A stretch of DNA of 64,000 bases from an uncultured Bacteroidales bacterium (GTDB taxonomy: Bacteria; Bacteroidota; Bacteroidia; Bacteroidales; VadinHA17), in NCBI GenBank assembly GCA_963838215.1, contig CAWIQG010000004.1, positions 166,826-230,825 of the forward strand. The letters are read 5' to 3'. Under the pieces are notes generated by a model. The model was not told the origin of the DNA. It did no database searches and saw nothing but the letters and a program-made list of their open reading frames with translations. The number at the start of each line of letters is the position of its first letter. The first letter of the stretch is position 1. The position numbers and the translations under genes are program-made. Of this stretch, positions 39,583-63,496 are shown piece by piece.

Positions 39583-39585
39583 ATC

Positions 39586-40656: not shown

Positions 40657-40663
40657 TGGCTGA

Positions 40664-40888: not shown

Positions 40889-40896
40889 ATATTTAT

Positions 40897-42225: not shown

Positions 42226-42239
42226 ACAGCATTGAAGAA

Positions 42240-43541: not shown

Positions 43542-43605
43542 AATAAAATAATTAATTCACCGTGTCACTCAATCTTCAGTTAATCCTGAAAATAGAATAA
43601 ATTTT

Positions 43606-44031: not shown

Positions 44032-44110
44032 TTTTTATGTATTTTTTGAGTGAAAAGAATATTCGAATATAACATAAAAATTAAACGGGTCGAAAGAAAG
44101 TATATGAAGA

Positions 44111-46168: not shown

Positions 46169-46434
46169 AATGAAAAGTAATTTTGCAGGGAATATTATTA
46201 ATTCAGGAATTCCGATGAATAGGAAATTATAACCCCGCAAACATTTTTAGGAAGCTCACATTATGAGCAACAACAAACAAATATTTTTCTGATATATAAC
46301 AACTTACAGCCAAAATAGTATTTGATATCATAAAAGCAAGATAATAAAAATAAATAGCACAAAACAAGATAATTGTCATTCCATTTTTTAAATCATGACA
46401 AAAACAGAATGGTTGTAAATATGTCTTAAAAAAT

Positions 46435-50074: not shown

Positions 50075-51499
50075 TCAGAAATATAAGTCTCTTTCCCCTT
50101 TCTTAATTCTTTCAATTTTCTCTTTTGTAATAATAGCCACATTAGGCTCAAGTTTTTCCAGGTTTTTTTCAATTGCCTTCCATCCTTTTTCCACTGTTTC
50201 TCCCTGAGCATAGTCGCAGATATATTCCGAGAGAGTCAGAATAGCGTTAGGTGTGCAGAATCTTTTAATAAACCCGGGTACTGAAAATTCCATAAAATGT
50301 TCGCCAGTACGTCCCATCCTGTAGCACGAAGTGCAGAATGAAGGCAGATAATCGTTTGTGAGTAATTCGTCGATCACTTCAGCCAGCGATCTTGCATCAT
50401 TTATCTTAAATTGTTCGCGATTCAGATCCTGTTTCTCATTTTTTGAGTCAGAATATGAGCCAAGCTCAAGTTTTGTTCCACCATCTATTTGGGAAACACC
50501 ATATTGCATGGCTTCTTTCCTTACATCAGGAGCTTCTCTTGCAGTCAATATCAAACCTGTGTAAGGGACTGCAAGTCTCAGTATAGCAATAAGTTTTTTA
50601 AAATCTTCATCATTTGTCTGGTATTTTCCGTCAATGTTCAGGCTGAGGGCATCTTTGATACGGGGAAATGAGATTGTATGCGGGCCCACATTATAACATG
50701 CCTCAAGATGATTGGTATGCCGTACAAGTCCCAGAACTTCAAACCTCCAGTCGTACAGTCCGAAAAGAGCGCCTATTCCCACATCATCAATTCCTGCTTC
50801 CTGCGCTCTGTCCAAAGCTGTAAGCCGCCATTCAAAGTCTTTCTTTTTACCTCCCAGATGATACCATTTATAAGCTTCGGGATGATATGTTTCCTGAAAT
50901 ATCTGATAAGTTCCTATACCGGATCCTCCTACAGTTCTAAAGCCTTCAATGTCGAGTGGAGCTGCATTTATATTTACCCTCCTTATTTCGCCCCGACCTT
51001 TCTTAACTCCATAAACAATTTTAACTGTTTGGGCGATATATTCCGGTGAGTAATCAGGATGTTCTCCATAAACCAGGATAAGTCTTTTCTGCCCGTTATC
51101 TTCAAGCGCTTCAACTTCTTTGATCAGTTCCTCATTACTCAGGGTTTTCCTGATTGCATCCTTATTCGAAATTCTGAATCCACAATACTGGCAATTATTT
51201 ATACATTTGTTACCAACATATAGAGGAGCAAAAAGCACGATCCGGTTTCCATATACCTTCTCTTTCAGTTCTCTTGCCCCCTGTTTAATCTCATCAGCGA
51301 GATCGGTGCCGATTGAATTTACCAGTACGGCAGTTTCCTGCATTGTAAGCCTTTGTTTATCAAGCGATTTAGCGATAACATCCCTCACCCTTTGCCTTTC
51401 AGGTTTTGTGTTTTTTATCAATGCCCATATCTCTTCAGGATCAATGAATTGTTTCATTCGCTGATCGGGAATACTCAACTTCTCAGGTGAAAACCTCAT
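50075..51499 (-). CDS. hydG: [FeFe]-hydrogenase H-cluster radical-SAM maturase HydG
   Basis: 474 aa. YVGNKCINNCQYCGF radical-SAM motif and C-terminal FCTSCYRMGRTGEHFMEF...FCTPNA cluster motif. Confidence 0.9.
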   Translation of the reverse strand: MRFSPEKLSIPDQRMKQFIDPEEIWALIKNTKPERQRVRDVIAKSLDKQRLTMQETAVLVNSIGTDLADEIKQGARELKEKVYGNRIVLFAPLYVGNKCINNCQYCGFRISNKDAIRKTLSNEELIKEVEALEDNGQKRLILVYGEHPDYSPEYIAQTVKIVYGVKKGRGEIRRVNINAAPLDIEGFRTVGGSGIGTYQIFQETYHPEAYKWYHLGGKKKDFEWRLTALDRAQEAGIDDVGIGALFGLYDWRFEVLGLVRHTNHLEACYNVGPHTISFPRIKDALSLNIDGKYQTNDEDFKKLIAILRLAVPYTGLILTAREAPDVRKEAMQYGVSQIDGGTKLELGSYSDSKNEKQDLNREQFKINDARSLAEVIDELLTNDYLPSFCTSCYRMGRTGEHFMEFSVPGFIKRFCTPNAILTLSEYICDYAQGETVEKGWKAIEKNLEKLEPNVAIITKEKIERIKKGERDLYF

Positions 51500-51565: not shown

Positions 51566-52486
51566 TTAGTATATAAGGTCCGATATCTCTTCTTTTGCCA
51601 AATTAATCCTTACGATTGTTTTATTATCGTAAATATTAACAGAACCATATATTTTTTTATGAAAGTATATTGTAATTTTCTGGTCAGAAAGAGACCACGA
51701 ATTATCAAAAACATTCAAAAGAACTTCTCCTTTATCTTCCTGGTTTTTATGAATTACTACCAAACCTTTTGAAAAAAAAGATCCGCTTTCAGCTGATACT
51801 GCGTAAATTCCGTATGAAGGAAGAAGTTTGCATTCTTCTGTAAGTGGCACTTGTACAAATGGAGGCAGCTCAATAGAAGCCTCACTGACGTACTTTATCG
51901 GTTTCCCAATGATAATGTAATAGTGATCAAGATAAGCATTTGCCCTCTGGATATATCCCTCGCTTATAGCCTGGCGTATTTTTGTTGAACTGACCGTTTC
52001 GTGCTGAACCTCCTGTTCAGGTATATCTTCGGCTTCAAAATTATATTTCCCCTGCCATGCCCAAAGTTGTTTATAATCTCCTTCCTTATTGAATCCAAAA
52101 TGATGGTTAAATCCTGAAACAACTACCTTAGCATGTAAAATACCATGAAGAAAATCTTTAACAAACTGCTCGCTGGTAATTTTAGAGAACTCCCTGGTGA
52201 ATTCTATGATGATAACATTATTAAGACCGGTTTTCTCAAGGAGCTCCAGTTTTTCCTCCTGCGAATAAATAAGCTTCAGGTCCTTACCTGCAGTATCGGG
52301 GTAAAGCACTTTCCTGGGATGCGGGTCAAATGTGATGAGCACCGATTCACCGTCGTGCTTCTCAGCCAGCATTTTTAACCGTTTAAGAATGGTCTTATGT
52401 CCGATATGAACCCCATCGAACGATCCGGTTGTCACAACAGGATTTCTGATAATCTTTGCATCTTCAAAGTTTCTGAAAATATTCAT
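51566..52486 (-). CDS. ribF: bifunctional riboflavin kinase / FMN adenylyltransferase
   Basis: 306 aa. VVTTGSFDGVHIGH motif. Confidence 0.9.
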   Translation of the reverse strand: MNIFRNFEDAKIIRNPVVTTGSFDGVHIGHKTILKRLKMLAEKHDGESVLITFDPHPRKVLYPDTAGKDLKLIYSQEEKLELLEKTGLNNVIIIEFTREFSKITSEQFVKDFLHGILHAKVVVSGFNHHFGFNKEGDYKQLWAWQGKYNFEAEDIPEQEVQHETVSSTKIRQAISEGYIQRANAYLDHYYIIIGKPIKYVSEASIELPPFVQVPLTEECKLLPSYGIYAVSAESGSFFSKGLVVIHKNQEDKGEVLLNVFDNSWSLSDQKITIYFHKKIYGSVNIYDNKTIVRINLAKEEISDLIY

Positions 52487-52498
52487 GAAGGCAGAATC

Positions 52499-53122
52499 CT
52501 AAATTTTATTTTCTTTCACAAAGTATGCAACTTTCTCGATAGAGGTAATCATATCATATTCTTCGAGATAGACTCCTGACGGAACATTTAAAGGAATAGT
52601 TGTAAAATTGAGAATACCTTTTATTCCGTATCTGACTGTTTCTTCAGCTATTTCCCTTGCATATTCAGGTGGAACAGTAAGAATGGCTATTCTTATATCG
52701 AGTTCTGTTATTATTTTTTCTATATCGCTGTAAGGATAGCATTTCACTCCCGAAATGACTTTATTAACCTTCTGGATATCGTTGTCAAACGAAGCCACAA
52801 GATTCAGTTTTGACCGTTTCCCCTTAAAATAACCTGCTACAGCTCTTCCCAGATTTCCGATTCCAATTATTGCGACATTCATGCTCACTTCCGAATCAAT
52901 GATAATTCCAATTTTATCAATAAGCTCCCTGACGTCGTATCCTTTTCTAAGAACACTCGAATATCCAATCAGCATCAGATCGCGCCTGACCTGTACTGCA
53001 GTAATGTGAAGACGGGCGGCCAGCTCGTGAGAAAAAATGAAGTTTCTCTTTTCATTAAGGCACTCCAGAAGTGTCCTTCTGTATTCACTCAGCCTTTCTA
53101 CGGTTCTTCCTGGTAATTTCAT
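52499..53122 (-). CDS. rex: redox-sensing transcriptional repressor Rex
   Basis: 207 aa. N-terminal winged helix (RLSEYRRTL...ISSHELA) and Rossmann AIIGIGNLGRA. Confidence 0.9.
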   Translation of the reverse strand: MKLPGRTVERLSEYRRTLLECLNEKRNFIFSHELAARLHITAVQVRRDLMLIGYSSVLRKGYDVRELIDKIGIIIDSEVSMNVAIIGIGNLGRAVAGYFKGKRSKLNLVASFDNDIQKVNKVISGVKCYPYSDIEKIITELDIRIAILTVPPEYAREIAEETVRYGIKGILNFTTIPLNVPSGVYLEEYDMITSIEKVAYFVKENKI

Positions 53123-53183: not shown

Positions 53184-54320
53184 TTAATTAAAGGTTATTG
53201 GTTTTTTTGGTAATCTTATTGTAAACACTGTTCCAACATCGGGTGTGCTGTCAACCTTAACTGTACCATGATAAAGTTCCACGACTTTTTTAACAATGGA
53301 CAATCCAAGTCCGCTACCGGATATATTCCTTGTCTTTTCGTTTTTAATTCTTACAAATTCGGCAAACAGGTTATCTGTGTCATTTTTTGTTATACCTATT
53401 CCCGTATCGGAAAAAATGAGAATAGCTTCACTATCAGAACTATCAATGGTAATTTCGGCTTTTCCACCTATTTTATTGTACTTTACTGCATTAGAAATGA
53501 GATTATTAAAAACAATCTCCATATCATCGGGGTCAGCCATTATAATGGCATCAGAGCGAACATCAAGATTAATGCTTACATCCATCTGGATCGCATAGGG
53601 CTGAACAGTTATTATTGCATTTGAAGCCACTTCAGAAAGATTGACTTCCTGTATTTTTTCCTCTTTCCTTTCAAGACGTATCTTTGTAAAATCAAGAAGG
53701 TCCATAATAAGGTTTCTCATTCCCTGTATCCTTTGAAGAGATCTTTCGATTGGAGTTGCATAATCTTCAATTCTGTCCCCTGACTGCTTCTCCTGCATCA
53801 TCCTGAGATATCCTTCCAGTGCATTTAATGGAGCCTTCAATTCGTGTGAAAGAACTGAAAGAAACTGGTACCTGACCTTCTTCCCATCCTGTTTCAATTT
53901 ATGCGTTATTCTCTTCAGATACTGTTGTTTCGTAATGTTTTCGATGCTCGATTTTAATTCCTGTGGAGTAAATGGTTTTGGGATGAAATCAATGGCTCCA
54001 TCGCGGGTAGCCCTTAATGCAACATCAAGCGATGCATACGATGTGATCATTGCCACGACAATATCATAGTTCCTTTTTTTTATGTACTCAAGTACATCCA
54101 CCCCCTGTATTCCCGGCAACTTATTATCGAGCAAAAGGATATCCGGCATATCGTGTTCAAGAATAGTGATACCTTCTTCGCCTGTTCCGGCTTCAGTCAC
54201 TTCAAATGTATAATCCTCATCCATAAAAGGATAAGTGACATGGAAATTGTTCAGTATCCTGGAAACCCCTGAACGTATTCCCGGTTCATCATCAATGACA
54301 AGTACTTTTAAAACAGCCAT
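53184..54320 (-). CDS. hybrid REC-HisKA-HATPase protein (receiver-regulated histidine kinase, soluble)
   Basis: N-terminal REC (VLVIDDEPG, ILLLDNKLPG, IPKPF), H-box LSHELKAPLN, G2 GSGLGLSIVKKV. No TM segment and no DNA-binding domain. Confidence 0.85.
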   Translation of the reverse strand: MAVLKVLVIDDEPGIRSGVSRILNNFHVTYPFMDEDYTFEVTEAGTGEEGITILEHDMPDILLLDNKLPGIQGVDVLEYIKKRNYDIVVAMITSYASLDVALRATRDGAIDFIPKPFTPQELKSSIENITKQQYLKRITHKLKQDGKKVRYQFLSVLSHELKAPLNALEGYLRMMQEKQSGDRIEDYATPIERSLQRIQGMRNLIMDLLDFTKIRLERKEEKIQEVNLSEVASNAIITVQPYAIQMDVSINLDVRSDAIIMADPDDMEIVFNNLISNAVKYNKIGGKAEITIDSSDSEAILIFSDTGIGITKNDTDNLFAEFVRIKNEKTRNISGSGLGLSIVKKVVELYHGTVKVDSTPDVGTVFTIRLPKKPITFN

Positions 54321-54321: not shown

Positions 54322-54717
54322 TTATAGTTTTAAGAGTTTCATAACCTCCTGATCAAGCTGTTCGGGTCTGATACCTTTTTCAAGATATTTGTCAGCCCTG
54401 ATCCATGATTTTTCCTGTTCTGAATCGATACTGAAAGATAAGCCTGTTTCGTGCGATACTGCTGTTGCAAGTATAACAGGTACGTCAGGATATTTTCTCT
54501 TTAACTTATAACACAGGATAAAGCCGCTGTCGTCACTCTCCATCATCAGGTCAAAAATTGCCAGATCAGGTTTGAATCTGGCAATAACCGATTCAGCCTC
54601 TGTCTGGCTCTCCACGGCCATGGTTTTGTATCCTGCCTTCTCCAGATTAAATACAGTCTGAAAAAGATAATCCGGATCATCATCTGCAATCAATATTGTA
54701 AAATCACTCTTCTTCAT
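54322..54717 (-). CDS. stand-alone receiver (REC) protein
   Basis: 131 aa. ILIADDD, AIFDLMM, ILATAV and YLEKG supply the conserved D/D/T/K positions. No output domain. Confidence 0.85.
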   Translation of the reverse strand: MKKSDFTILIADDDPDYLFQTVFNLEKAGYKTMAVESQTEAESVIARFKPDLAIFDLMMESDDSGFILCYKLKRKYPDVPVILATAVSHETGLSFSIDSEQEKSWIRADKYLEKGIRPEQLDQEVMKLLKL

Positions 54718-54861: not shown

Positions 54862-56823
54862 CTATTCTTTTCGTCTCGGTAACACAATTTTGAAGCTTGT
54901 TCCTGTTGGCCCTTTTGCAGAATTATTATTCGATTCAGCTGTAATCTGCCCTTTGTGCATTTTGACAATACCATATGCGGTTGCCAGCCCCAGTCCTGTA
55001 CCTTGCCCAATACTTTTAGTAGTAAAAAAAGGTTCGAAAATCTTAGCTCTATCTTCCTCCCTGATACCTGTTCCGGAATCGCTTATAGTAATAATAACAT
55101 CACCCAGAGTATCTTCCAGACTGATATCAATTTTCCCTCCGCCCGGCATTGCGTCAATCGCGTTTTTTATCAGATTTGTAAAAACCTGCATCATTTGTTC
55201 CGAATCGAGCATTGCCTCAGGGTTTGTTGTTAAATCCAAAACATTAATTTTAATTTTTTCAGGAACAATCATACTCTCAAGGCTATGATTAACAAGCTCT
55301 TTAATACTTACTATCTGGTGGTTCACCTGGTTCTTCCGCGCAAAATTAAGCAACCCTGCGACAATTTTTTTGCATCTGCCGGCCTGCTCTACAATGAGTT
55401 TAAGATCTTCCCGTACAGGATCCCCGGCAGAGGATTCTTCCAGAAGGATGTTGCTGTACATTATCACTACTCCAAGAGGATTATTAAGCTCATGAGCAAT
55501 ACCGGCTGAAAGCTGACCCATGTGAGCAAGTTTTTCTGATTGTTTCAGAGCCTGTTTCATTGAGGAGAGCTTCTCGTTCGACAATGCAAGGTCTTTTACC
55601 GACTTGTGAAGCTTTTCAATAGTATATGGAAGGCACATCTCGACTTCTGCAAGACCCTTTTTAATAGCTATTGCATGCTCCACACAACTTTCATAGCCGC
55701 AGGCACCACAATCGAGCTGGTCTTTCTTTGTTTTCTTGCCCATTCTTATAAGAACATCGTTCACATCATTTTCATCCAGGACAGCAATTCGATGATCCTC
55801 AGCCTTATGACGGAATGAAAGATCAAGCTCTGCAAATTCATCAAATGATTTTTGCCAAAAATCGGAATCAATATTCTGCATTTTACTGTTTGCATAGGAA
55901 CTTACAAGTGCCCGTCTGTTGTACTGTTTTCCATTTTTCGATAATCCGGGCCCCATTATACATCCTTCACAACAGAGAAGTTCCATGTGCTGGTTCTTTA
56001 TCAATCCCGCTTCAAATTCTTTTAATGCGCCCTGAAAATCTATCCTCCCTTCGGCGGCAATAATATTACCTGTGATAGCATTATCGCTGATTTTGGCTGT
56101 CTGAAGCAATCCGCGTGCTACAGGGAAAATAGCACCTCTTCCACCTACAGGCTGGTCAAAATCAATCAGTTTACTGTTTTCAGGAGTGATATCCCTGTCG
56201 GCAAACATATCTCTTAATTCAGTAAAGGTTATTGCCTCATCTATTTCGACGCTTTCAGCTTTTTTTGCAATGCATGGTCCTATAAAAACAATTTTTGCAT
56301 CCTTACCATATTTTTCACGTATCACTCTGCTCATCGCCACCATTGGAGAAACTATCGGAGCCAGATTATCAACAAGAGCCGGATGATAGTATTTGATGTA
56401 GTTTACAATTGAAGGACAATCAGACGAAATATAAAAATCTCTGCTTTCCGTGACGAGTTTTTTATATCGATCTGCCACAAGGTCAGCACCAAAAGAGACT
56501 TCCGCCACATATTCAAATCCGAGCGCCTTTATCATACCTATGAGAACACGGTAGTCAGCAAAATCAGAGAATTCAGCCGGGAAACTCGGAGCAATAATAG
56601 CAGCAACTTTCTTTTCATTTTCAAGAAGTTTTACTACCCTGTCAGTTGTATTCAGAAAAACTTTTGCACCCTGGCTGCATACTTTGGTACAATTTCCGCA
56701 TGCTATACACCTTTCGTCTATAACCTCGGCCTGTCCTCCGACAATACGAATAGCTTTGGCAGGGCATTCCCTTACACAGGTATAGCAGGTACGACAAAGT
56801 TCCTTTATTGTATAAACCAGCAT
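54862..56823 (-). CDS. [FeFe]-hydrogenase-like sensor fused to a histidine kinase (ferredoxin + H-domain-like + Cx2Cx4Cx16C + HisKA + HATPase)
   Basis: CRTCYTCVRECP and CIACGNCTKVCS; H-domain-like motifs SSDCPS, GPCIAKKAE, LLCCEGCIMGPG; DCGACGYESCVEHAIAIKKGLAEVEMC; H-box GIAHELNNPLG; GTGLGLATAYGIV. Confidence 0.85.
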   Translation of the reverse strand: MLVYTIKELCRTCYTCVRECPAKAIRIVGGQAEVIDERCIACGNCTKVCSQGAKVFLNTTDRVVKLLENEKKVAAIIAPSFPAEFSDFADYRVLIGMIKALGFEYVAEVSFGADLVADRYKKLVTESRDFYISSDCPSIVNYIKYYHPALVDNLAPIVSPMVAMSRVIREKYGKDAKIVFIGPCIAKKAESVEIDEAITFTELRDMFADRDITPENSKLIDFDQPVGGRGAIFPVARGLLQTAKISDNAITGNIIAAEGRIDFQGALKEFEAGLIKNQHMELLCCEGCIMGPGLSKNGKQYNRRALVSSYANSKMQNIDSDFWQKSFDEFAELDLSFRHKAEDHRIAVLDENDVNDVLIRMGKKTKKDQLDCGACGYESCVEHAIAIKKGLAEVEMCLPYTIEKLHKSVKDLALSNEKLSSMKQALKQSEKLAHMGQLSAGIAHELNNPLGVVIMYSNILLEESSAGDPVREDLKLIVEQAGRCKKIVAGLLNFARKNQVNHQIVSIKELVNHSLESMIVPEKIKINVLDLTTNPEAMLDSEQMMQVFTNLIKNAIDAMPGGGKIDISLEDTLGDVIITISDSGTGIREEDRAKIFEPFFTTKSIGQGTGLGLATAYGIVKMHKGQITAESNNNSAKGPTGTSFKIVLPRRKE

Positions 56824-56842: not shown

Positions 56843-58564
56843 TCATAATAACACATTTCTTTTTTCAAAATGAGTATAAAATATCTTTTTATTTGTAATG
56901 TCATTATTTTCTTTTAAAAACTTCTCATAGAGATTAATTATTGCCGGTGATTTGCAAGGTAAATTAATTGCTTCAGTATCATCGGTCTGATAAATAAATT
57001 TCGCCCGATTCCTGATTTCTTCTTTTGAAGTACTGAAAGGCAGTCCTGCTCCATGTACACATCCCCCGGGACACGTCATCACTTCAATAAGATCGTATTT
57101 TTTACCTGAAACAGTAGATGTTCTTAGTTTTTCAAGACCCGTAAGCCCGTCAATTACAGCTATATTCAACTCAGTTTCGCCAATATATACTTTTGTCTCC
57201 CTGAAGGACCCACCAGACCGGAGTTTTTTAAAAAGCTGTTTGTCAACCTCTTTCTTAAGTTTCAGAAAATGGAACGAACGTATAACTCCTTCAGCCAATC
57301 CGCCTGATACTTCAGCCAGTACCGCTGCAGAACTTCTCCCTGCCATTGGTTCGTCTGCCGGTTCATGTTCAATATTTGTTGTGTCTATACCATATAACCG
57401 TATAAGCCTGGCTAGTTCTCTTACAGTCAAAACAGAATCAACGTCACTTATTCCCTTTCTCATCATTCCATCGCGACGGGCTTCAAATTTCATTGCCATA
57501 CAAGGAGTTACAGATACCGAAAAGATTTCTTCCGGTTTCGCACCTGACTGTCCGGCAACAAGTGTTTTAACCAGAACCCCGGTTATCTGTTGCGGCGATT
57601 TTACTGTGGAGAGCTGCGGAATTAGCGAAGGGATGAACTGCTCTGCATATTTAACCCAGGCCGGGCAGGCAGAAATAATTAAAGGTGTTTCAGATTTATT
57701 TTCAATTTTTTCTGATAACTGACCGGTAATTTCAGTGATACATACATCAGTGCCTGTACCTGTTGTGAATACTTTATCGAAACCTATCTTGCGCAGAATG
57801 GCATTCAGTATTTTATCAAATTCCCTGTTGTACCTCATCCCGAGTTCTTCAGCAATTCCGACAGTCACCAAAGGGGAATACTGAATGATTTTAACAATAT
57901 CAGGTTTATGAAGGTATTCCTGAACTTCGGTTATGTTATGCTTTTCATGAAGTGCTCCGGTAGGACAAACGAGCACGCACTGGCCGCAATGAATACAACT
58001 TGAGAAGTTGAAATCTTTGTCCATTGCTGCCCCGATATGTGTCTCTTTTCCTTTATTAATAAAATCGAGTGAAATTGAAGTTATGACCTCCTCACAGACT
58101 CTGACACATCTTCCGCAAAGAATACATTTCGAGAGCTCCCTGACAATGGCAGGGCTCGACTGGTCGAGATGAGGTTTTATCTTTTTGCCTCGTATCCGTC
58201 GCTCCCGGATGTTCAGTTCTTCAGAAAGACGCTGCAATTCACAATTCAGGTTCCTGTCGCAATAAAGGCAATCATCCGGATGATTTGAGAGAAGAAGCTC
58301 AACTATCGTTTTTCTTGCCATTATCACTCTTGGGGAATGGGTTTTTATTTTCATCCATTCTTCTACTGGCTGAGAGCAGGCTGTGACCAGACGGTCGCGA
58401 CCATCGACTTCAACTACACACATTCTGCAGGCGCCTGTCGGAGTAAACTCCTTCATCCTGCAAAGAGTAGGAATAATGATCCCGTTACGATTAAGGGCTG
58501 AGAGAATAGTCTCACCTTTTTCAGCCCTGATCTTTTTATTATTTACCTGTATTGTAAAAAGCAT
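56843..58564 (-). CDS. hydA: [FeFe]-hydrogenase large subunit HydA, CpI-like M3 architecture, non-canonical active-site surroundings
   Basis: 573 aa. N-terminal 2Fe-2S, His-ligated 4Fe-4S (HPDDCLYCDRNLNC), two ferredoxin motifs, H-domain motifs ISACPAW / TPCMAMKFE / EVMTCPGGCVHGAG, small-subunit-like C-terminus (SPAIINLYEKFL...YTHFEKR). Confidence 0.85.
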   Translation of the reverse strand: MLFTIQVNNKKIRAEKGETILSALNRNGIIIPTLCRMKEFTPTGACRMCVVEVDGRDRLVTACSQPVEEWMKIKTHSPRVIMARKTIVELLLSNHPDDCLYCDRNLNCELQRLSEELNIRERRIRGKKIKPHLDQSSPAIVRELSKCILCGRCVRVCEEVITSISLDFINKGKETHIGAAMDKDFNFSSCIHCGQCVLVCPTGALHEKHNITEVQEYLHKPDIVKIIQYSPLVTVGIAEELGMRYNREFDKILNAILRKIGFDKVFTTGTGTDVCITEITGQLSEKIENKSETPLIISACPAWVKYAEQFIPSLIPQLSTVKSPQQITGVLVKTLVAGQSGAKPEEIFSVSVTPCMAMKFEARRDGMMRKGISDVDSVLTVRELARLIRLYGIDTTNIEHEPADEPMAGRSSAAVLAEVSGGLAEGVIRSFHFLKLKKEVDKQLFKKLRSGGSFRETKVYIGETELNIAVIDGLTGLEKLRTSTVSGKKYDLIEVMTCPGGCVHGAGLPFSTSKEEIRNRAKFIYQTDDTEAINLPCKSPAIINLYEKFLKENNDITNKKIFYTHFEKRNVLL

Positions 58565-58569: not shown

Positions 58570-60507
58570 CTATTTAACGGTGATTGCACTAAATTTACAG
58601 ATGTCGAAACAGATACCACAGCCAGTGCATTTTTCCTCAACAATGAAGAATGGCTGAAGTCGTGTTCCATAAATCGCATTAACAGGACATTTGGCAGCAC
58701 AGGCTGTGCATCCTGTACATTTTTCCACATCGATGGAAAAAGTCCTTAACCCTCTGCATATATTTGCCCGGCATTTCCTGTCGAAAATGTGTTCTTCAAA
58801 TTCATCCCTGAAATTTTTCAAAGCACTGATAAACGGGTTAGGAGCTGTCTGACCGAGACCGCACAGAGATGTATCCTTCATTACCGATGCAATTGTCTCG
58901 AGCTGCATGACTCCCTTGAACCGTTCAAGAGTAGTACCGGATTCTTCATTTAAAGGTTTTTTTATTACGCTATCAAGGATTTCGAGCATCCTACCCGTGC
59001 CTTCACGGCAGGGGATGCATTTTCCACAACTCTCATTTCGCATGAATTCCATATAATATCTGACGAGGTCGACCATACAGGTGTTTTCATCTATTATTAC
59101 AAATCCACCTGCACCCATTCCGATCCCTTTTTCCTTAAGCTCATCATAATCTATTGCAATATCGAGGTTTTCATTGGTTATGAATGAACCTGATGCTCCT
59201 CCTAACTGTATGGCTTTAAACTCTTTCCCTTCCCTTATCCCATCAGCTATTTCTTCCAGGATTGTCCTTATCGTCGTACCCATTTCGACCTCAATCACTC
59301 CTGACATCCGGCCTTTTCCAGCCACGGCAAAAACTTTCGTGCCCGGACTGTTTTCCGTTCCGAGTGTCCTAAACCATTCCGGACCGTTCTGCATAATGAG
59401 CGGGACATTCATTAGAGTCTCAACATTATTTATTACAGTTGGTTTTCCGAATAATCCCGCTGTAGTCGGATATGGAGGTTTAAGGCGCGGCATTCCCCTT
59501 TTTCCTTCAAGAGTATTTATAAGAGCCGTTTCTTCTCCGCAGACAAAGGCTCCTGGTTCTTTCCGTATTACAACATCGAGGTTATAGCCACTTGAAAAAA
59601 TATTATGCCCAAAAAGACCATATTCTCTTGCTTTGTCAATTGCTTTCTGAAGCTTGTTGAGAGCATGATCAGATCCTGATCTCATAAATATTATAGCATT
59701 TGAAGCTCCTATTGCGTACGATGCAATAGCAATACCTTCAATGAGACGATGCGGGTCGCTTTCAAGAATGGTCCTGTCAGTGAAGGCTCCGGGGTCGCTC
59801 TCCTTAGCATTACAGATCAGATACCTTGCGTTCGAACTTGCATTAAGAGCATGCTTCCACTTGAGACCAGTAAGATAACCTCCACCGCTTCTTCCCCTCA
59901 GTCCGCTCTTTTCAATAATATCACAAACCTCCTCAAAGGTATAATGTCTGATTGCCTTAATATAGGCACGATATCCACCGCGAGCGATGTATTCTTCAAT
60001 GCGTTCAGGATCGTAACATCCGCAATTGTCGAGAACCACTTTTTTCTGATTGGCAAAGAAAGGTAAATTATCCAAAAATGGGATCCCGTTCCATAATTCA
60101 AATCCTTTGGTTCCGGTTTGCCCAACGAGGTCATCCTCGTTTATATCATTATGGAAAACACCATTGAGAAGAGGTTCAACCTTCTCCTCGGTTATATTTC
60201 TGAAGTATAACTTATTTTTCCCGGGAATATGAACACATACTATGGGCTCAAAATTTGAAGGTCCTGTACAACCCACGCGTACTAATCCCACAGCTGGCTC
60301 ATTTTCTGTAATATAAGTCTCGATGGAAGAATAGGTTTTTTCCGATCCGGCTATGATACTGCTTGTACCGGATGAAACAAAGATTACAGGTTTATCGGGT
60401 TTTTCCCGTCTTACCTGTTGCAATATCTTTTCTGTTTCCGGTGACAATGTATCGGATTCAAATAAAAGAACCTTTTCGATAATGAAAGTTTTTAAATCTT
60501 CCATCAT
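58570..60507 (-). CDS. hydB: NuoF-like HydB subunit (thioredoxin-like N-domain, FMN/NADH module, 4Fe-4S, C-terminal 2x[4Fe-4S])
   Basis: 645 aa. GLRGRSGGGYLTGLKW, CGEETALINTLEGKRGMPRLKPPYP, ESCGKCIPCREG, SLCGLGQTAPNP, and terminal CTGCTACAAKCP / CTGCGICFDIC. Confidence 0.85.
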   Translation of the reverse strand: MMEDLKTFIIEKVLLFESDTLSPETEKILQQVRREKPDKPVIFVSSGTSSIIAGSEKTYSSIETYITENEPAVGLVRVGCTGPSNFEPIVCVHIPGKNKLYFRNITEEKVEPLLNGVFHNDINEDDLVGQTGTKGFELWNGIPFLDNLPFFANQKKVVLDNCGCYDPERIEEYIARGGYRAYIKAIRHYTFEEVCDIIEKSGLRGRSGGGYLTGLKWKHALNASSNARYLICNAKESDPGAFTDRTILESDPHRLIEGIAIASYAIGASNAIIFMRSGSDHALNKLQKAIDKAREYGLFGHNIFSSGYNLDVVIRKEPGAFVCGEETALINTLEGKRGMPRLKPPYPTTAGLFGKPTVINNVETLMNVPLIMQNGPEWFRTLGTENSPGTKVFAVAGKGRMSGVIEVEMGTTIRTILEEIADGIREGKEFKAIQLGGASGSFITNENLDIAIDYDELKEKGIGMGAGGFVIIDENTCMVDLVRYYMEFMRNESCGKCIPCREGTGRMLEILDSVIKKPLNEESGTTLERFKGVMQLETIASVMKDTSLCGLGQTAPNPFISALKNFRDEFEEHIFDRKCRANICRGLRTFSIDVEKCTGCTACAAKCPVNAIYGTRLQPFFIVEEKCTGCGICFDICKFSAITVK

Positions 60508-60522: not shown

Positions 60523-60993
60523 TTAGTCGTTTTCAACAACGTACTTTAATCTTTTAATCAGCTCGGGCAATTGTTCAGCTTTAATATGGATTTGATATTC
60601 TCCGTTAACATTAATTACCGGACCATTGTAACAACCACCCATGCATGAAACAATCTCATAGCTGAAATTCCCATCCCTGGTTGTTTGTCCGGGCATTGCT
60701 CCCGTTTCTTCTTTAATTTTATTAATGATTGATTGTGACCCGTTCAGGAAACAGGATGTGCCATTACAAATCCTGATCTGAACTTTTCCGGCAGGAATAA
60801 ACCTGAACCTGTCATAAAATGTTGCAAGGCCATAAATTTTTGTCGTACTTAACCCTAAAAAACCACCAACCCTGATAATAGCTTCTTCAGAAAGATATCC
60901 ATAATCTTCCTGTATTTCCTGAAGAAGAGGAATAAGATCCTCTCTTTTCCCCTGTTTGTATTTTTTCAGAATTATGTCAATATCTGAACCCAT
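60523..60993 (-). CDS. hydC: NuoE-like HydC subunit (thioredoxin-like 2Fe-2S)
   Basis: 156 aa. ICNGTSCFLNG and VSCMGGCYNGPVINVNG (Cx4C...Cx3C). Confidence 0.85.
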   Translation of the reverse strand: MGSDIDIILKKYKQGKREDLIPLLQEIQEDYGYLSEEAIIRVGGFLGLSTTKIYGLATFYDRFRFIPAGKVQIRICNGTSCFLNGSQSIINKIKEETGAMPGQTTRDGNFSYEIVSCMGGCYNGPVINVNGEYQIHIKAEQLPELIKRLKYVVEND

Positions 60994-61041: not shown

Positions 61042-61059
61042 TTGTTAATAAATAAACAT
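61042..61059. promoter_or_regulatory. second, imperfect Rex-like box (TTGTTAA-TAAA-TAAACAT)
   Basis: Perfect left half-site. The right half-site has 2 mismatches. Abuts the perfect box. Confidence 0.3.
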
Positions 61060-61076
61060 TGTTAATTTATTAACAA
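61059..61076. promoter_or_regulatory. Rex-type operator TTGTTAA-TTTA-TTAACAA
   Basis: Perfect 7-bp inverted half-sites with a 4-nt spacer, matching the clostridial-type Rex consensus TTGTTAAnnnnTTAACAA as I recall it. Located in the divergent hydC / 2Fe-2S-gene promoter region; rex is encoded 8 kb away in the same locus. Confidence 0.6.
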
Positions 61077-61286: not shown

Positions 61287-61556
61287 ATGAACAGTAAGAA
61301 AATGGCTCAAAGAATTGAAATGCAGATTTGTCTTGGCAGTTCATGTTTCTCCAGAGGTAACAAAGATGTGGTAATGTTCATACGCGAATACCTCAGGAAA
61401 AATCATCTCGATGACAAAGTCATTTTTAAAGGAGCGCGTTGTATGGACCGTTGCAGTAATGGTCCGAATCTTAATATAAACGGAATGATTATTGAGGATG
61501 TCACCATTTCAAAAATTGAGTGCATTCTGGAAAAAGAGCTTGCCAGATTTATATAA
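61287..61556 (+). CDS. small thioredoxin-like [2Fe-2S] ferredoxin (HfsA/NuoE-like)
   Basis: 89 aa. CLGSSCFSRG and ARCMDRCSNGPNLNING (Cx4C...Cx3C). Confidence 0.8.
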   Translation: MNSKKMAQRIEMQICLGSSCFSRGNKDVVMFIREYLRKNHLDDKVIFKGARCMDRCSNGPNLNINGMIIEDVTISKIECILEKELARFI

Positions 61557-61609
61557 ACTCAAATAAGTACCTGAAATGCACCGAAATTCGGGTGCTTAAA
61601 ATTATAAGC

Positions 61610-63496
61610 ATGATAAACGGAAAACCTGTTCTTTACATAAATGATAAAAAATGCAGAAATTCATATTCCTGCGTGCGTGTCTGCCCTGTAAATGCCATTG
61701 AGGTCAGGCCCCAGAAGGCGCATCCATATATCCTTCCTGCCAGATGCATAGGATGCGGATTATGTTATGTATCATGCACTCCTGACGCGATTGAGTTCCG
61801 CGACTCCAGCGAAGATGTGAAGAAATTATTATCATCGGGCAGGAAAACTGCAGCTCTTATTGAACCAAGTATTGCATCGGAGTTTGACGATATTACTGAT
61901 TACAGGAAGCTTGTTGCAATGATAAGATTGCTCGGATTTGATTATGTTCATGAAGGTTCGTTCGGAGCTGATCTGATAGCGGCAGCTTATGCAAAACTAT
62001 TCTCGAAAGCTGAAGGCAAGTATCTTATAACTGCCAACTGCCCGTCAATTGTTAAAATGATAGAAAAATTTCATCCGGAACTTGTGCCTAATCTTGCACC
62101 ATTAGTTTCACCGATGATTGCTACGGCAATGGTTGTTAAAGAGTTATATGGAGATGATGTAGCCACGGTCCAGATTGGGCCATGCATAGATGCGAAAGAT
62201 GAATCTTTGATTTATAATTCAGGTAAGCTTGTCGATGGGGTCCTGACTTTTGTTGAAGTGCGACAGCTTTTTGATGAATTCAGGATACAGGAGAGACTCG
62301 TAAAAATGTCGGATTTCGATCCACCGCATGGCAACTGGGGAGCCCTCTACCCTCTTCCTGCCGGCATTATACAGGCAGGAGGAATAAAACGCGATATGGT
62401 TTCGAGCAGTGTAATTACGGCTTCAGGAAAAGAAGAGATCCTTGAAGCAATTAATGACTTCGATAAGTACATTGACACTATTCAGCACCATTTTAACCTT
62501 TTCTTCTGTCACGGATGTCTTCTTGGCCCGGGTATGGAACAACATAACGAACGTTTCAGGAGAAGATCGCTTGTGCGGAAGTATGCAGAAAAGAGGGTTG
62601 GCAAACTTGATAAAGCGCTTTGGCAAAAGAATATGGAAAAATGGTCGAAACTCGATTTTTCAAGAACCTTCACACCTGACGACCAGAGAATTCCTGAACC
62701 TCCGGAAGAGTCTATAGCAGAAGTACTTAAAATTATCGGTAAAGACAATCCTGATGAAGAGATAAACTGTGGAGCTTGCGGATATCTATCGTGCCGCGAA
62801 TTTGCCTCGACGGTGGCAAAAGGGCTCGCAGTTCCTGAAATGTGTCACACTTTCAATCTTCGCAATAAGCAGGAGTATATTGAAACATTAAGACAGACTA
62901 ACCGAAAACTGGCTGAAACTAAAAAGGCTCTCAAAGAATCAGAAGAACTTGCCCGTCGGGAAAAGGAGATTGCCCAGAGTGCTTCGGATATGATGAATAA
63001 CATGCTCGAAAAGCTTCCAACCGGGGTGGTCATTGTGGACAATAATCTCAAAATACTTCATTCCAATCAAAGCTTTATTAATATAATCGGCGAAGATGCC
63101 AGGGCAATCTCCGATGTCATTCCCGGACTGGTTGGCGCTGATGTCAAGACTCTAATCCCTTTCAATGTATATAACATGTTTACATTTGTTATAAAAGAAG
63201 ATGAGCCTGTTGTGAGCAAAGATGTTCACTTTGAAGACAAAATGCTGAATATTTCAATCTTCCCAATAAGGAAGAATAAGATATGCGGGGCAATAATCCG
63301 CGATCTCTATTCCCCTGAAGTGCAAGGTGAAGAGGTGACAAACAGGGTAAGTGAAGTAATTGATAAGAACCTTGAAATGGTACAAAAGATCGGATTTTTG
63401 CTTGGAGAAGGCGCTTCAGAGACTGAACAGATGCTCAATTCAATTATCGAATCATATAAAAAGAAAAAAGGAAATCTGAAAAATAATCAGAAATAA
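61610..63496 (+). CDS. [FeFe]-hydrogenase-like PAS sensor (HydS/HfsB-like)
   Basis: Start moved to MINGKPVLYI. Ferredoxin motifs CRNSYSCVRVCP (one Cys missing) and CIGCGLCYVSC; H-domain-like TANCPS, GPCIDAKDE, FFCHGCLLGPG; NCGACGYLSCREFASTVAKGLAVPEMC; coiled coil; C-terminal PAS-like region (LPTGVVIVDNNLKILHSNQSF). Confidence 0.85.
   Translation: MINGKPVLYINDKKCRNSYSCVRVCPVNAIEVRPQKAHPYILPARCIGCGLCYVSCTPDAIEFRDSSEDVKKLLSSGRKTAALIEPSIASEFDDITDYRKLVAMIRLLGFDYVHEGSFGADLIAAAYAKLFSKAEGKYLITANCPSIVKMIEKFHPELVPNLAPLVSPMIATAMVVKELYGDDVATVQIGPCIDAKDESLIYNSGKLVDGVLTFVEVRQLFDEFRIQERLVKMSDFDPPHGNWGALYPLPAGIIQAGGIKRDMVSSSVITASGKEEILEAINDFDKYIDTIQHHFNLFFCHGCLLGPGMEQHNERFRRRSLVRKYAEKRVGKLDKALWQKNMEKWSKLDFSRTFTPDDQRIPEPPEESIAEVLKIIGKDNPDEEINCGACGYLSCREFASTVAKGLAVPEMCHTFNLRNKQEYIETLRQTNRKLAETKKALKESEELARREKEIAQSASDMMNNMLEKLPTGVVIVDNNLKILHSNQSFINIIGEDARAISDVIPGLVGADVKTLIPFNVYNMFTFVIKEDEPVVSKDVHFEDKMLNISIFPIRKNKICGAIIRDLYSPEVQGEEVTNRVSEVIDKNLEMVQKIGFLLGEGASETEQMLNSIIESYKKKKGNLKNNQK

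What the first reader, a model, noticed from the sequence alone, without database searches (positions are those of the whole stretch)
56843..58564. The operon's 'catalytic' HydA lacks the canonical proton-transfer pathway and the conserved Lys register
Seen: the protein is 573 aa with the same domain order as the 574-aa Clostridium pasteurianum CpI, so my ungapped alignment gives matching residue numbers. All Fe-S ligands are present (C300, C355, C499, C503 plus the accessory clusters). The residues I recall as the CpI proton pathway are mostly replaced. Glu279 is Ile (TDVCITEITGQL versus ADMTIMEEATEL), Glu282 is Gln, Arg286 is Lys, and Cys299 is Ala (ISACPAW; GCC at 57670-57668). Only Ser319 is kept. 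Also, Met353 is Thr, and the L2 motif reads TPCMAMKFE, which puts Met at the Lys358 position with Lys one residue later. L3 reads EVMTCPGGCVHGAGLP rather than ...GGCxxGGGQP. Established: this pathway is near-invariant in prototypical and bifurcating group A enzymes, and its loss characterises the sensory HydS types. Inference: either this HydABC-like complex uses a different proton route, or it is itself a slow or regulatory enzyme despite its NuoE/NuoF-like partners.
Basis: partly seen in the sequence, partly recalled or inferred. Interest (0 to 1): 0.65.

Follow-up and report, generated by a model that had tools for sequence, protein, structure and literature searches.

The report
Hydrogenase subunit with a degenerate active site
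The hydrogen-making subunit of this Bacteroidales enzyme complex keeps its iron-sulfur wiring but lacks the residues that feed protons to, and anchor, the catalytic di-iron centre, so a widespread gene routinely annotated as a hydrogen producer is probably slow or inactive.

Summary
A proper alignment to C. pasteurianum CpI confirms E279I, E282Q, R286K, C299A, M353T and K358M, with S319 and all cluster cysteines kept. The fold is intact (AlphaFold pLDDT 94.6, TM 0.93 to T. kivui HydA1).

It is not an oddity of one genome. 192 distinct close sequences, and relatives in 272 species-level genomes (the 80 fetched are nearly all Bacteroidota MAGs), share the pattern. Eight subfamilies only 40-45% identical sit in the same operon: hydC-hydB-hydA*-hydS(histidine kinase)-RR-RR/HK-rex-ribF. 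Across these orthologs positions 299 and 358 vary freely (A/S/N/C/L/F; M/A/R/N/G/H). The adjacent sensor HydS-HK always keeps Lys358.

Within the clade the H-domain evolves about 3.4 times faster than the N-terminal Fe-S domains, the reverse of canonical enzymes, yet stays under purifying selection (dN/dS about 0.07). Published work says Lys358 variants cannot assemble the H-cluster.

Best reading: HydA* is a sensor-like or non-catalytic H-domain subunit of a Rex-controlled HydABC/Bfu-type complex. It is not a prototypical catalyst. No conserved replacement proton relay exists across the family. I found no prior description. This is a new variant of a known kind, and activity needs experimental testing.

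The parts
56843..58564 (-). hydA* : 573-aa M3-type HydA-like subunit with all Fe-S ligands but a non-canonical H-cluster pocket
   Evidence: AlphaFold2 pLDDT 94.6 and pTM 0.93. Foldseek TM 0.93 to 8a6t_A, 7q4w_A and CpI. NCBIfam group A6 model scores 590 bits against a cutoff of 765; TIGR02512 scores 354 against 406.
57707..57733 (-). Codons 278-286, the proton-pathway helix: E278 kept, E279I, E282Q, R286K
   Evidence: Clade frequencies: E278 192/192; position 279 I157/L19/V10; position 282 Q177; position 286 K90/R79.
57656..57679 (-). L1 motif IISACPAW (canonical TSCCPxW); codon 299 is GCC (Ala) at 57670-57668; the C300 ligand is kept
57482..57508 (-). L2 motif TPCMAMKFE (canonical MPCxxKxxE): M353T and K358M; C355, K359 and E361 kept
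   Evidence: Role of K358 from PMC9516953.
57038..57085 (-). L3 motif EVMTCPGGCVHGAGLP: M497, C499 and C503 kept; N505H, G507A, Q509L
58570..60507 (-). hydB: NuoF-like flavoprotein with a C-terminal 2x[4Fe-4S] domain (BfuB type)
   Evidence: Pfam Complex1_51K, NADH_4Fe-4S and Fer4. Best PDB matches are 7t2r_B (E 4e-174), NfnB and A. woodii HydB. 5-nt gap to hydA*.
60523..60993 (-). hydC: NuoE-like thioredoxin-like [2Fe-2S] subunit
   Evidence: Pfam 2Fe-2S_thioredx, E 5.6e-44. 15-nt gap to hydB.
61059..61076 (.). Palindrome TTGTTAATAAATTAACAA 66-83 nt upstream of hydC: candidate Rex operator
   Evidence: A match with 2 or fewer mismatches lies within 250 nt upstream of hydC in 70 of 70 loci, almost always 51-84 nt upstream. 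Background in random 250-nt windows is 1.5%.
54862..56823 (-). hydS-HK: group C1-type sensory [FeFe]-hydrogenase fused to a histidine kinase; keeps K358/K359/E361 and has Asp at position 299
   Evidence: Pfam Fe_hyd_lg_C, FeS, HisKA and HATPase_c. Motifs SSDCPS / GPC[VI]AKKAE / LLCCEGCIMGPG are invariant in 74 orthologs, and K358 is kept in all distant orthologs. It lies 19 nt after hydA* and is present downstream in 69 of 71 loci.
54322..54717 (-). Stand-alone response-regulator receiver
   Evidence: Pfam; conserved synteny.
53184..54320 (-). Hybrid receiver plus histidine kinase
   Evidence: Pfam; conserved synteny.
52499..53122 (-). rex: NADH/NAD+-sensing repressor
   Evidence: Pfam Put_DNA-bind_N plus CoA_binding; conserved synteny.
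51566..52486 (-). ribF-like FAD synthetase / riboflavin kinase, the last gene of the conserved core operon
   Evidence: Synteny. Pfam FAD_syn on orthologs.
50075..51499 (-). hydG H-cluster maturase
   Evidence: TIGR03955, 482 bits against a cutoff of 312.
48183..49283 (+). hydE H-cluster maturase
   Evidence: TIGR03956, 354 bits against a cutoff of 255.
61287..63496 (+). Divergent unit: small thioredoxin-like [2Fe-2S] protein (61287-61556) and a second HydS-like protein, HydS2 (61520-63496), with N299 and A358
   Evidence: Pfam. Motifs TANCPSI / GPCIDAKDE. Orthologs sit next to a SpoIIE phosphatase.

Best explanation
HydA* is the A subunit of a Rex-controlled HydABC/Bfu-type flavin and iron-sulfur complex found in Bacteroidota-type loci. 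Its H-domain has been released from the constraints of canonical H2 catalysis.

Shown:
- The fold, all accessory clusters and the four cysteines of the [4Fe-4S]H site are intact.
- The inner proton relay (E279, E282, C299) and the Lys that anchors the distal cyanide (K358) are gone.
- These pocket positions differ freely between orthologs of the same operon.
- The H-domain evolves faster than the Fe-S wiring but is still under purifying selection.

Inferred:
- HydA* cannot assemble or hold the [2Fe] subcluster in the canonical way. It acts mainly as the electron-wiring and dimer-scaffold subunit, keeping only the cubane, as the HydA of the NiFe-type Bfu hydrogenase does.
- If any H2 chemistry happens in this operon, it more plausibly resides in the tightly linked, in two subfamilies overlapping, HydS-HK. 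That is the only H-domain protein here whose Lys358/Glu361 pocket is conserved across the family. It also usually carries Asp at 299, the one substitution known to sustain catalysis in CpI.
- The complex would link NADH and ferredoxin pools (BfuBC core) under Rex and H2-sensor control.
For: Register and substitutions.

Clade conservation of non-Cys 299, M358, T/S353, A417 and E418, with P231 (P106/S86), P324 and P510 variable.

Reversed domain constraint:
- In the clade, entropy is 0.18 for the N-terminal domains and 0.67 for the H-domain.
- In the clade, dN is 0.054 against 0.185.
- In 66 canonical representatives the H-domain is the better conserved part (identity 0.45 against 0.36). In 39 non-canonical representatives it is 0.28 against 0.41.

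Eight subfamilies at 40-45% identity sit in the same operon, with 299 = A/S/S/N/C/L/F/N and 358 = M/A/A/R/N/G/R/H. HydS-HK in the same loci always keeps GPC[VI]AKK.E and nearly always LLCC.GCIMGPG.

Bulky Phe or Leu at 299 in orthologs is sterically hard to reconcile with an adt bridgehead. This is inference from CpI geometry.

Literature: K228(Cr)=K358(CpI) variants prevent H-cluster assembly, and the CN-binding residues are strictly conserved in all known subclasses (PMC9516953). The HydA of the A. mobile NiFe-Bfu enzyme carries a [4Fe-4S] in place of the H-cluster (PMC9304861).

The protein falls below all curated NCBIfam hydrogenase cutoffs.
Against: The H-domain is still clearly under purifying selection (dN/dS about 0.07).

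Several residues that matter mainly for the [2Fe] site remain conserved in the query clade: Q325 190/192, M497 188/192, S323, G421/G422 and E361.

The pocket changes in this clade are to smaller residues (C to A, M to T, F to A, M to A), so the cavity is not filled.

Bona fide sensory hydrogenases with Ala299 and Gly/Ser/Thr353 do bind the H-cluster (PMC10055695, PMC8163306).

The operon is flanked by hydG and hydE and is wired to two putative H2 sensors and Rex, the usual setting of a real confurcating hydrogenase. ribF in the operon suggests a metabolic, abundantly made flavoenzyme.

Two of 71 loci keep an intact hydA* without hydS-HK, so HydS-HK cannot be an obligatory catalytic partner.

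No third-substrate module is encoded in the operon.
Confidence: 0.45

Rival explanations
1. HydA* does bind a complete H-cluster but works like the sensory group C/D enzymes. Turnover is low and catalysis needs overpotential, because the cysteine relay and the Met353 and Lys358 contacts are missing. HydABC* is then a slow confurcating hydrogenase, or a redox/H2-poising device, in slow-growing sediment and peat fermenters.
For: The A299, T/S353 and K286 combination matches group D TamHydS and group C TmHydS (PMC10407848, PMC8163306, PMC10055695). Position 299 is just as variable in known sensors (Cys 17%, Ala 43%, Pro 10%, Ser 10%). The cavity is not filled, and Q325 and M497 are conserved. The outer proton entrance (E278, S319, T320, H565) is conserved. 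Maturases, H2 sensors and a Rex box surround the operon.
Against: K358 is replaced (M191/192). The literature reports that variants at this Lys cannot assemble the H-cluster. Orthologs in the same operon carry Phe, Leu, His or Asn at 299 and Ala, Gly or Asn at 358. P231 is half Ser in the clade. The neighbouring HydS-HK keeps K358, which shows the constraint is felt where an H-cluster is really needed.
Confidence: 0.33
2. HydABC* is an ordinary, fully active electron-confurcating hydrogenase that uses a different proton route, for example water plus E418 or H505 in this clade, and a different anchor for the distal cyanide, for example K359.
For: The operon type, the BfuBC-like partners with a C-terminal ferredoxin domain, and Rex/H2-sensor control all match real A3 hydrogenases. 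E418 (190/192) and H505 (174/192) are clade-conserved gains next to residue 417, which lies close to the adt amine (PMC10055695). The natural TSCSP variant of A. woodii shows that L1 changes can be harmless (PMC10021017).
Against: No replacement residue is conserved across the operon family. Position 418 is S/N/G/S/G in five operon-confirmed orthologs (P0124-P0127, P0131) and N and E in the other two, P0130 and P0133. Position 505 is N/G/N/G/N/N/E in the seven. Pocket positions are hypervariable. The H-domain is the less constrained part of the protein, opposite to canonical enzymes. C299A and K358 variants of CpI and CrHydA1 are inactive or unassembled (PMC10055695, PMC9516953).
Confidence: 0.12
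3. The pattern is an artefact: a mis-registered alignment, a sequencing error, or a decaying pseudogene.
For: None found.
Against: The HMMER alignment is gap-free through the motifs, and the C299A CpI variant is the best-scoring CpI chain. 192 distinct sequences share the pattern. dN/dS is 0.02-0.09. The structure model is confident and superposes on HydA at TM 0.93.
Confidence: 0.01

Closest known systems
Electron-bifurcating group A3 [FeFe]-hydrogenase HydABC (T. kivui 8A6T, A. woodii 7Q4V/W, T. maritima 7P5H); FeFe-Bfu type 1
   Same: Same three-gene core and order of domains. HydA* is 39% identical to TkHydA1 in the Foldseek alignment with TM 0.93. It has the same accessory clusters and the same four H-site cysteines. 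HydB has the FMN/NADH module and the C-terminal 2x[4Fe-4S]. HydC is NuoE-like.
   Different: E279I, E282Q, C299A, M353T, K358M, F417A, G507A and Q509L. The H-domain is less conserved than the N-terminal domains. The protein falls below the curated NCBIfam cutoffs. The N-terminal thioredoxin-like domain of HydB lacks two of its four cysteines.
Putative sensory [FeFe]-hydrogenases HydS, groups C and D (TmHydS, TamHydS)
   Same: Ala at 299, a hydroxyl or small residue at 353, Lys at 286, the canonical proton pathway missing, and non-conservative variation of pocket residues between relatives (PMC10407848, PMC8163306, PMC10055695).
   Different: HydA* has the M3 architecture with a 2Fe-2S and a His-ligated cluster and sits in a complex with NuoE/F-like subunits. 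It has no C-terminal Cx2Cx4Cx16C cluster and no PAS or kinase domain. It also lacks Lys358, which the HydS-HK of this same operon keeps.
HydA (BfuA) of the bifurcating NiFe-hydrogenase HydABCSL of Acetomicrobium mobile (7T2R), and HylA of formate dehydrogenase complexes
   Same: HydA homologues within HydABC-like complexes that no longer carry the catalytic H-cluster and serve as Fe-S wiring (PMC9304861, PMC6085437). The HydB of this window is most similar to 7t2r_B.
   Different: Those proteins have lost the L1-L3 motifs or replaced the H-cluster outright, and a separate catalytic module (NiFe SL, FdhA) is encoded alongside. HydA* keeps a full, confidently folded H-domain with all four cysteines, and no other catalytic module is in the operon.
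Engineered CpI C299A (6GLY) and CrHydA1 K228 variants
   Same: The same two key substitutions, made in the laboratory. 6GLY is the best-scoring CpI chain for this protein.
   Different: Those are single changes in an otherwise canonical pocket, and they give inactive or unassembled enzyme. Here the changes are natural, combined and maintained in hundreds of lineages.

Membership tests
Prototypical / bifurcating group A [FeFe]-hydrogenase catalytic subunit | M3 domain architecture and H-domain fold | tested here: met
   Pfam. Full-length HMMER alignment, E 1e-130 to 8a6t_A. AlphaFold pLDDT 94.6 and Foldseek TM 0.93.
Prototypical / bifurcating group A [FeFe]-hydrogenase catalytic subunit | Four cysteines ligating [4Fe-4S]H and bridging to [2Fe] (C300, C355, C499, C503) | tested here: met
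   Present and invariant in 192 sequences.
Prototypical / bifurcating group A [FeFe]-hydrogenase catalytic subunit | L1 TSCCPxW with the Cys299 proton relay | tested here: not met
   IISACPAW; position 299 is A178/V7/S5/T2.
Prototypical / bifurcating group A [FeFe]-hydrogenase catalytic subunit | L2 MPCxxKxxE with Met353 and Lys358 (distal-CN anchor) | tested here: not met
   TPCMAMKFE; position 353 is T183/S9 and position 358 is M191/G1.
Prototypical / bifurcating group A [FeFe]-hydrogenase catalytic subunit | L3 ExMxCxxGCxxGGGQP | tested here: inconclusive
   EVMTCPGGCVHGAGLP. Glu, Met497 and both cysteines are kept. GGGQP is replaced by GAGLP, and P510 varies.
Prototypical / bifurcating group A [FeFe]-hydrogenase catalytic subunit | Proton pathway E279-E282-S319-R286 | tested here: not met
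   I279, Q282 and K/R286; only S319 is kept, plus the outer E278, T320 and H565.
Prototypical / bifurcating group A [FeFe]-hydrogenase catalytic subunit | Passes the curated family HMM thresholds (NF040763 A6, TIGR02512 group A) | tested here: not met
   590 bits against 765; 354 against 406. NCBI names relatives only '2Fe-2S iron-sulfur cluster-binding protein'.
Prototypical / bifurcating group A [FeFe]-hydrogenase catalytic subunit | H2 evolution/uptake activity and an assembled H-cluster | not testable with these tools
   Needs expression, maturation, FTIR/EPR and activity assays.
BfuABC / HydABC electron-bifurcating complexes | Adjacent hydC-hydB-hydA genes in one operon | tested here: met
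   Gaps of 15 and 5 nt. Conserved in all 80 related loci where the contig extends far enough, and in 8 distant subfamilies.
BfuABC / HydABC electron-bifurcating complexes | BfuB with the FMN/NADH domain, the NuoF [4Fe-4S] and the C-terminal 2x[4Fe-4S] (B3/B4) needed for ferredoxin | tested here: met
   Pfam. Alignment to 7t2r_B through residue 642 with both CxxCxxCxxxCP motifs.
BfuABC / HydABC electron-bifurcating complexes | BfuB N-terminal [2Fe-2S] (B5), said to be conserved in all Bfu enzymes | tested here: inconclusive
   The N-terminal domain has only two cysteines (C79, C91). The aligned GCHGMC of A. mobile reads GCTGPS here. Not checked across the family.
BfuABC / HydABC electron-bifurcating complexes | Coupled NADH + ferredoxin + third-substrate reaction | not testable with these tools
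   Biochemical assay needed. No third-substrate module other than the H-domains is encoded.
Sensory [FeFe]-hydrogenases (groups C/D, HydS) | Non-Cys at 299, small or hydroxyl residue at 353, canonical proton pathway absent | tested here: met
   A299, T353, I279 and Q282. Compared with the published group C/D patterns.
Sensory [FeFe]-hydrogenases (groups C/D, HydS) | M2e/M2f architecture: N-terminal 2x[4Fe-4S] only, a C-terminal four-Cys cluster, with or without a PAS or kinase output | tested here: not met
   HydA* is M3, with an SSU-like C-terminus and no FeS (PF04060), PAS or HK domain. The two true HydS genes flank it.
H-cluster-less HydA of NiFe-Bfu / HylA type | A separate catalytic module (NiFe large/small subunits, FdhA) encoded with hydABC | tested here: not met
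   The gene-by-gene Pfam tables for the distant-subfamily loci list no such module, and none of the operon genes or flanking ORFs annotated in the window is one. The 80 close loci were searched only with this window's own proteins.
H-cluster-less HydA of NiFe-Bfu / HylA type | Loss of the L1-L3 cysteine motifs | tested here: not met
   All four cysteines are invariant.

The most novel reading that the evidence does not exclude
The conserved eight-gene unit hydC-hydB-hydA*-hydS(HK)-RR-RR/HK-rex-ribF is not a hydrogenase plus its regulators but one machine. In this reading a bifurcation-type NADH/ferredoxin module has a catalytically dead H-domain that docks the kinase-fused HydS. Either H2 is split or made on HydS and wired through HydA* (a 'split' Bfu hydrogenase), or the redox state of the NADH and ferredoxin pools is written onto the H2 sensor's clusters. 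The histidine kinase would then integrate H2, NADH and ferredoxin status.
Probability: 0.12. Interest if true: 0.85.

Novelty: new variant of a known kind. Interest (0 to 1): 0.6.

Why it matters
These genes are common in Bacteroidales from peat, fen, lake sediment and digesters. The scan found relatives in 272 species-level genomes and hundreds of 90% clusters. JGI/KEGG-style pipelines annotate them as 'iron-only hydrogenase group A' or 'HndD'. Genome-based H2 budgets therefore count them as confurcating H2 producers. If HydA* is slow or inactive, those inferences overstate H2 production by this guild.

For enzymologists it is a natural experiment. A CpI-like scaffold has been maintained for a long time without Cys299 and without Lys358, two residues regarded as indispensable, right next to a sensor paralogue that keeps Lys358. 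That makes two questions directly testable: what the distal-CN lysine is needed for, and what an H-domain is good for when it no longer catalyses fast H2 turnover.

Tried and rejected
1. AlphaFold2 with a shallow alignment of 25 close homologues gave pLDDT 49 and was discarded. A 79-sequence alignment gave 94.6.

2. I tried to learn whether the B. thetaiotaomicron 'group A3' HydA belongs to this family. That protein shows only 0.22% of CrHydA1 activity, about 3-5 TPM and no fitness defect (PMC12578642). No sequence is held in the supplements. The B. caccae locus is hndA-hndD-nuoF without a kinase gene, so it is a different operon type. It is not used as evidence.

3. The listing of cluster members gave no organism names.

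4. The contigs for P0123 (nearest canonical relative) and P0128 were too short for context. P0149 lies in a different context.

5. Literature searches for TSACP/SACP motifs and for Bacteroidales HydABC motif variants found only the known C300S (TSCSP) variant and group B TSCCCP.

6. A whole-window Rex-box count is not above chance (12 against 7.4 expected). Only the positional conservation upstream of hydC is significant.

7. The NJ tree is used only descriptively. The long-branched non-canonical sequences may attract each other, so I make no claim of monophyly.

I therefore could not test whether the same genomes also encode a canonical TSCCP hydrogenase. The 64-kb window holds none.
Full report
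WHAT IS THERE

The ORF at 56843..58564 on the minus strand encodes a 573-aa protein. Its domains follow the CpI-type M3 order: a plant-type [2Fe-2S] domain, the His-ligated [4Fe-4S] domain, two ferredoxin-like [4Fe-4S] motifs, the H-domain (Fe_hyd_lg_C, E 7.8e-68) and a small-subunit-like tail.

It is the third gene of a tight operon. hydC (NuoE-like, 60523-60993), hydB (NuoF-like with a C-terminal 2x[4Fe-4S] domain, 58570-60507) and hydA follow each other with gaps of 15 and 5 nt.

After a further 19 nt comes a group C1-type sensory hydrogenase fused to a histidine kinase (HydS-HK, 54862-56823). It is followed by a receiver, a receiver-kinase hybrid, rex, a ribF-like gene and hydG. hydE lies just beyond.

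On the other strand sit a small thioredoxin-like [2Fe-2S] protein and a second HydS-like protein, HydS2. No other H-domain is encoded in the 64-kb window.

CHECKING THE OBSERVATION

phmmer against the PDB gives full-length alignments to T. kivui HydA1 (E 1.3e-130), A. woodii HydA1, T. maritima HydA and CpI.

Every claimed substitution is real:
- E279I, E282Q, R286K and C299A (GCC at 57670-57668)
- M353T and K358M, with K359 and E361 kept
- GGGQP replaced by GAGLP
- S319 kept

I add F417A and G418E, and note that E278 is retained. The CpI chain that scores best is 6GLY, the engineered C299A variant.

There are two minor corrections. The ungapped register is off by one in the N-terminal domains. 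It is also off by one after about residue 480, so the L3 cysteines are 498 and 502 in the protein's own numbering.

With a diverse alignment AlphaFold2 models the protein at pLDDT 94.6 and pTM 0.93. Foldseek superposes it on 8a6t_A, 7q4w_A and CpI at TM 0.92-0.93. The fold is therefore intact.

IT IS A FAMILY TRAIT

The protein database holds thousands of relatives. The best 120 clusters are 84-100% identical, and those that carry a source name are named from Bacteroidia or Bacteroidales MAGs. A scan of one genome per species found relatives in 272 species. The 80 best are nearly all Bacteroidota MAGs from fens, lake sediments, soils and digesters.

In 192 distinct clade sequences:
- Position 299 is Ala 178, Val 7, Ser 5 and Thr 2, never Cys.
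- Position 358 is Met 191 and Gly 1.
- Position 353 is Thr or Ser.
- Position 417 is Ala or Ser, and position 418 is Glu or Asp.
- All 19 cluster-ligand cysteines, K359, E361, E278 and S319 are invariant.

Synteny is almost invariant: HydS2 and the small ferredoxin on one strand, and hydC-hydB-hydA-hydS(HK)-RR-RR/HK-rex-ribF, usually followed by hydG, on the other. HydS-HK follows hydA in 69 of 71 loci that are long enough to tell.

THE WIDER FAMILY

An exhaustive search of 50%-identity representatives shows that the clade is one cluster. Its representative is 77% identical to the query, and the next hits are only 39-46% identical.

Among the 105 full-length neighbours, 66 have the canonical E279/E282/C299/M353/K358 set. 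The other 39 do not. They carry S, F, A, N or H and other residues at 299, and R, K, A, E or S and other residues at 358. They still keep C300, C355, C499, C503, K359 and E361.

I looked up genomic context for the non-canonical clusters. Seven besides the query clade had contigs long enough to judge, and all seven lie in the same core operon. These are P0124, P0125, P0126, P0127, P0130, P0131 and P0133, at 40-45% identity to the query. Three of these loci (P0125, P0126, P0131) also encode T9SS-tailed (Por_Secre_tail) proteins typical of Bacteroidota. In two of them the hydA stop overlaps the hydS-HK start by 4 nt.

The HydA motifs in these orthologs differ strongly:
- L1: ISACPAW, TSSCPAW, ISSCPAV, SSNCPAW, SSCCPAW, STLCPSW, SSFCPSL, ISNCPSI
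- L2: TPCMAMKFE, SSCTAAKTE, TPCTAAKAE, SPCTARKLE, MACVANKFE, QTCTSGKYL, TPCTSRKYE, TPCVSHKYE

In the very same loci HydS-HK keeps GPC[VI]AKK.E without exception. It nearly always keeps LLCC.GCIMGPG, and it usually has SSDCP. Over the same evolutionary span the sensor's pocket is constrained and the 'catalytic' subunit's pocket is not.

SELECTION

Within the clade the N-terminal Fe-S domains are much better conserved than the H-domain. Mean column entropy is 0.18 against 0.67, and 49% against 18% of columns are invariant. Nei-Gojobori dN is 0.054 against 0.185.

Canonical representatives show the opposite. Their H-domain pairwise identity is 0.45 against 0.36 for the N-terminal part. The non-canonical set resembles the clade, at 0.28 against 0.41.

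Positions that are invariant in canonical enzymes float in the clade. P231 is P106/S86, P324 is P/S, and P510 is P/S/T/A. Even so, dN/dS of the H-domain is only about 0.07. The domain is functional in some way and is not decaying.

WHAT THE LITERATURE SAYS

Cys299 is the immediate proton relay. Every replacement except Asp abolishes or cripples activity in prototypical enzymes. Sensory HydS proteins carry Ala (43%), Pro, Ser and others at this position and Gly/Ser/Thr at 353. They still bind the H-cluster but are slow (PMC10055695; PMC10407848; PMC8163306). M353T alone occurs in the active CpII.

The Lys equivalent to K358 (K228 in CrHydA1) is 'extremely well conserved'. [quoted passage not shown]

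HydA homologues without an H-cluster exist inside HydABC-like (Bfu) complexes. Examples are the NiFe-HydABCSL of A. mobile and HylA (PMC9304861; PMC6085437). The natural TSCSP variant of A. woodii, with a Ser ligand at 300, is fully active (PMC10021017), so not every L1 change matters.

In the searchable library I found no description of a HydA with Ala299 and Met358 in a HydABC operon.

INTERPRETATION

Shown: HydA* is a well-folded M3 HydA with complete Fe-S wiring and the cubane site. It lacks the inner proton relay and the distal-CN lysine. These pocket positions are unconstrained across orthologs of a conserved operon carried in Bacteroidota-type loci.

Inferred, as the most likely reading (about 0.45): HydA* does not assemble a canonical H-cluster and serves as the electron-wiring and scaffold subunit of a BfuBC-type NADH/ferredoxin module. 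Any H2 reactivity in the operon would then more plausibly lie in HydS-HK.

The main rival (about 0.33) is a true but slow, sensor-like hydrogenase. The following points favour it:
- the unfilled cavity
- conserved Q325 and M497
- a conserved outer proton entrance (E278, S319, T320, H565)
- the hydrogenase-typical regulatory setting

A fully active enzyme with a new proton route (about 0.12) lacks support, because no replacement residue is conserved across the family. E418 is specific to the query clade.

Arguments against the best reading:
- No alternative third-substrate module is encoded.
- ribF in the operon and a Rex operator suggest a metabolic flavoenzyme.
- Two loci keep hydA* without hydS-HK.

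REGULATION AND CONTEXT

A perfect palindrome, TTGTTAATAAATTAACAA, lies 66-83 nt upstream of hydC. A match with at most two mismatches occurs upstream of hydC in 70 of 70 related loci, almost always 51-84 nt away. In random 250-nt windows the rate is 1.5%. This fits a Rex operator, given that rex is in the operon.

Upstream in the window lies an amino-acid fermentation cluster that would generate reduced ferredoxin: a 2-oxoacid:ferredoxin oxidoreductase, an aminotransferase, PaaK and an ADP-forming acyl-CoA synthetase.

VERDICT

The feature is a new variant of a known kind: a widespread family of HydABC A-subunits, in Bacteroidota-type operons, with a sensor-like or degenerate active site. Whether it still makes H2 needs experiment. 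Its common annotation as a confurcating hydrogenase should be treated with caution.

Noticed in passing
window 54862-56823 (- strand), and orthologs in L001-L092: The kinase-fused sensor HydS-HK has Asp at the position of Cys299 (SSDCPS), the one substitution known to keep CpI and CrHydA1 active. Its L2 and L3 motifs are invariant in 74 close orthologs; in the distant subfamilies L2 keeps GPC[VI]AKK.E and L3 varies slightly. Published surveys of sensory enzymes list mainly Ala, Pro and Ser at this position.
   Followed up: partly
window 61520-63496 (+); L081 1-1251; L090 5625-6900: The second HydS-like protein (next to a SpoIIE phosphatase in orthologs) also lacks Lys358 (GPCID[ANS]KDE) and has Asn299. 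In L081 its cysteine ligands themselves are replaced (MSNDPI, SPLIASKDE), so this 'sensor' lineage seems to be losing the H-cluster site.
   Followed up: partly
window 60013-60507 (codons 1-165 of hydB, - strand): The N-terminal thioredoxin-like domain of HydB has only two cysteines (C79, C91; GCTGPS where A. mobile HydB has GCHGMC). The 'B5' [2Fe-2S] cluster, described as conserved in all Bfu enzymes, is therefore probably absent.
   Followed up: partly
window 61059-61076; upstream of hydC in 70 of 70 loci: A conserved palindrome, TTGTTAA-N4-TTAACAA, lies 51-84 nt upstream of hydC and is a candidate Rex operator. A second half-degenerate copy lies directly next to it, at about 61042-61058.
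   Followed up: yes
window 51566-52486 (- strand): A ribF-like FAD synthetase / riboflavin kinase gene is a conserved member of the operon in seven of the eight subfamilies (the P0131 locus lacks it there; the P0124 contig is too short to tell). This may be linked to FMN supply for HydB.
   Followed up: no
window 38226-46240: A cluster for amino-acid fermentation: 2-oxoacid:ferredoxin oxidoreductase subunits, an aminotransferase, phenylacetate-CoA ligase (PaaK) and an ADP-forming acyl-CoA synthetase. It is a likely source of reduced ferredoxin near the hyd locus.
   Followed up: partly
P0122: A 4122-aa predicted protein with seven H-domain copies (period 444 aa, six of them identical in their motifs). 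It is probably an assembly or gene-calling artefact of a tandem repeat, and it has canonical L2 and L3 motifs.
   Followed up: partly
L009 and L010 (both from MAG fen_982); L071 (MAG labelled Chloroflexota): One MAG carries two copies of the whole locus on different contigs, either strain mixture or duplication. A 4.4-kb contig with a 78% identical hydCBA* sits in a Chloroflexota bin and is probably mis-binned.
   Followed up: no
L024 and L039: Two genomes keep an intact hydA* but lack hydS-HK. L024 also lacks both receiver genes. These are natural deletions that could serve as tests of whether the sensor is needed.
   Followed up: partly
representatives P0123, P0139, P0146, P0148, P0156 and others: Many canonical relatives carry TSCSPGW (Ser at the C300 ligand position), as in A. 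woodii HydA1. This is a known and active variant that is evidently very common in sequence space.
   Followed up: yes
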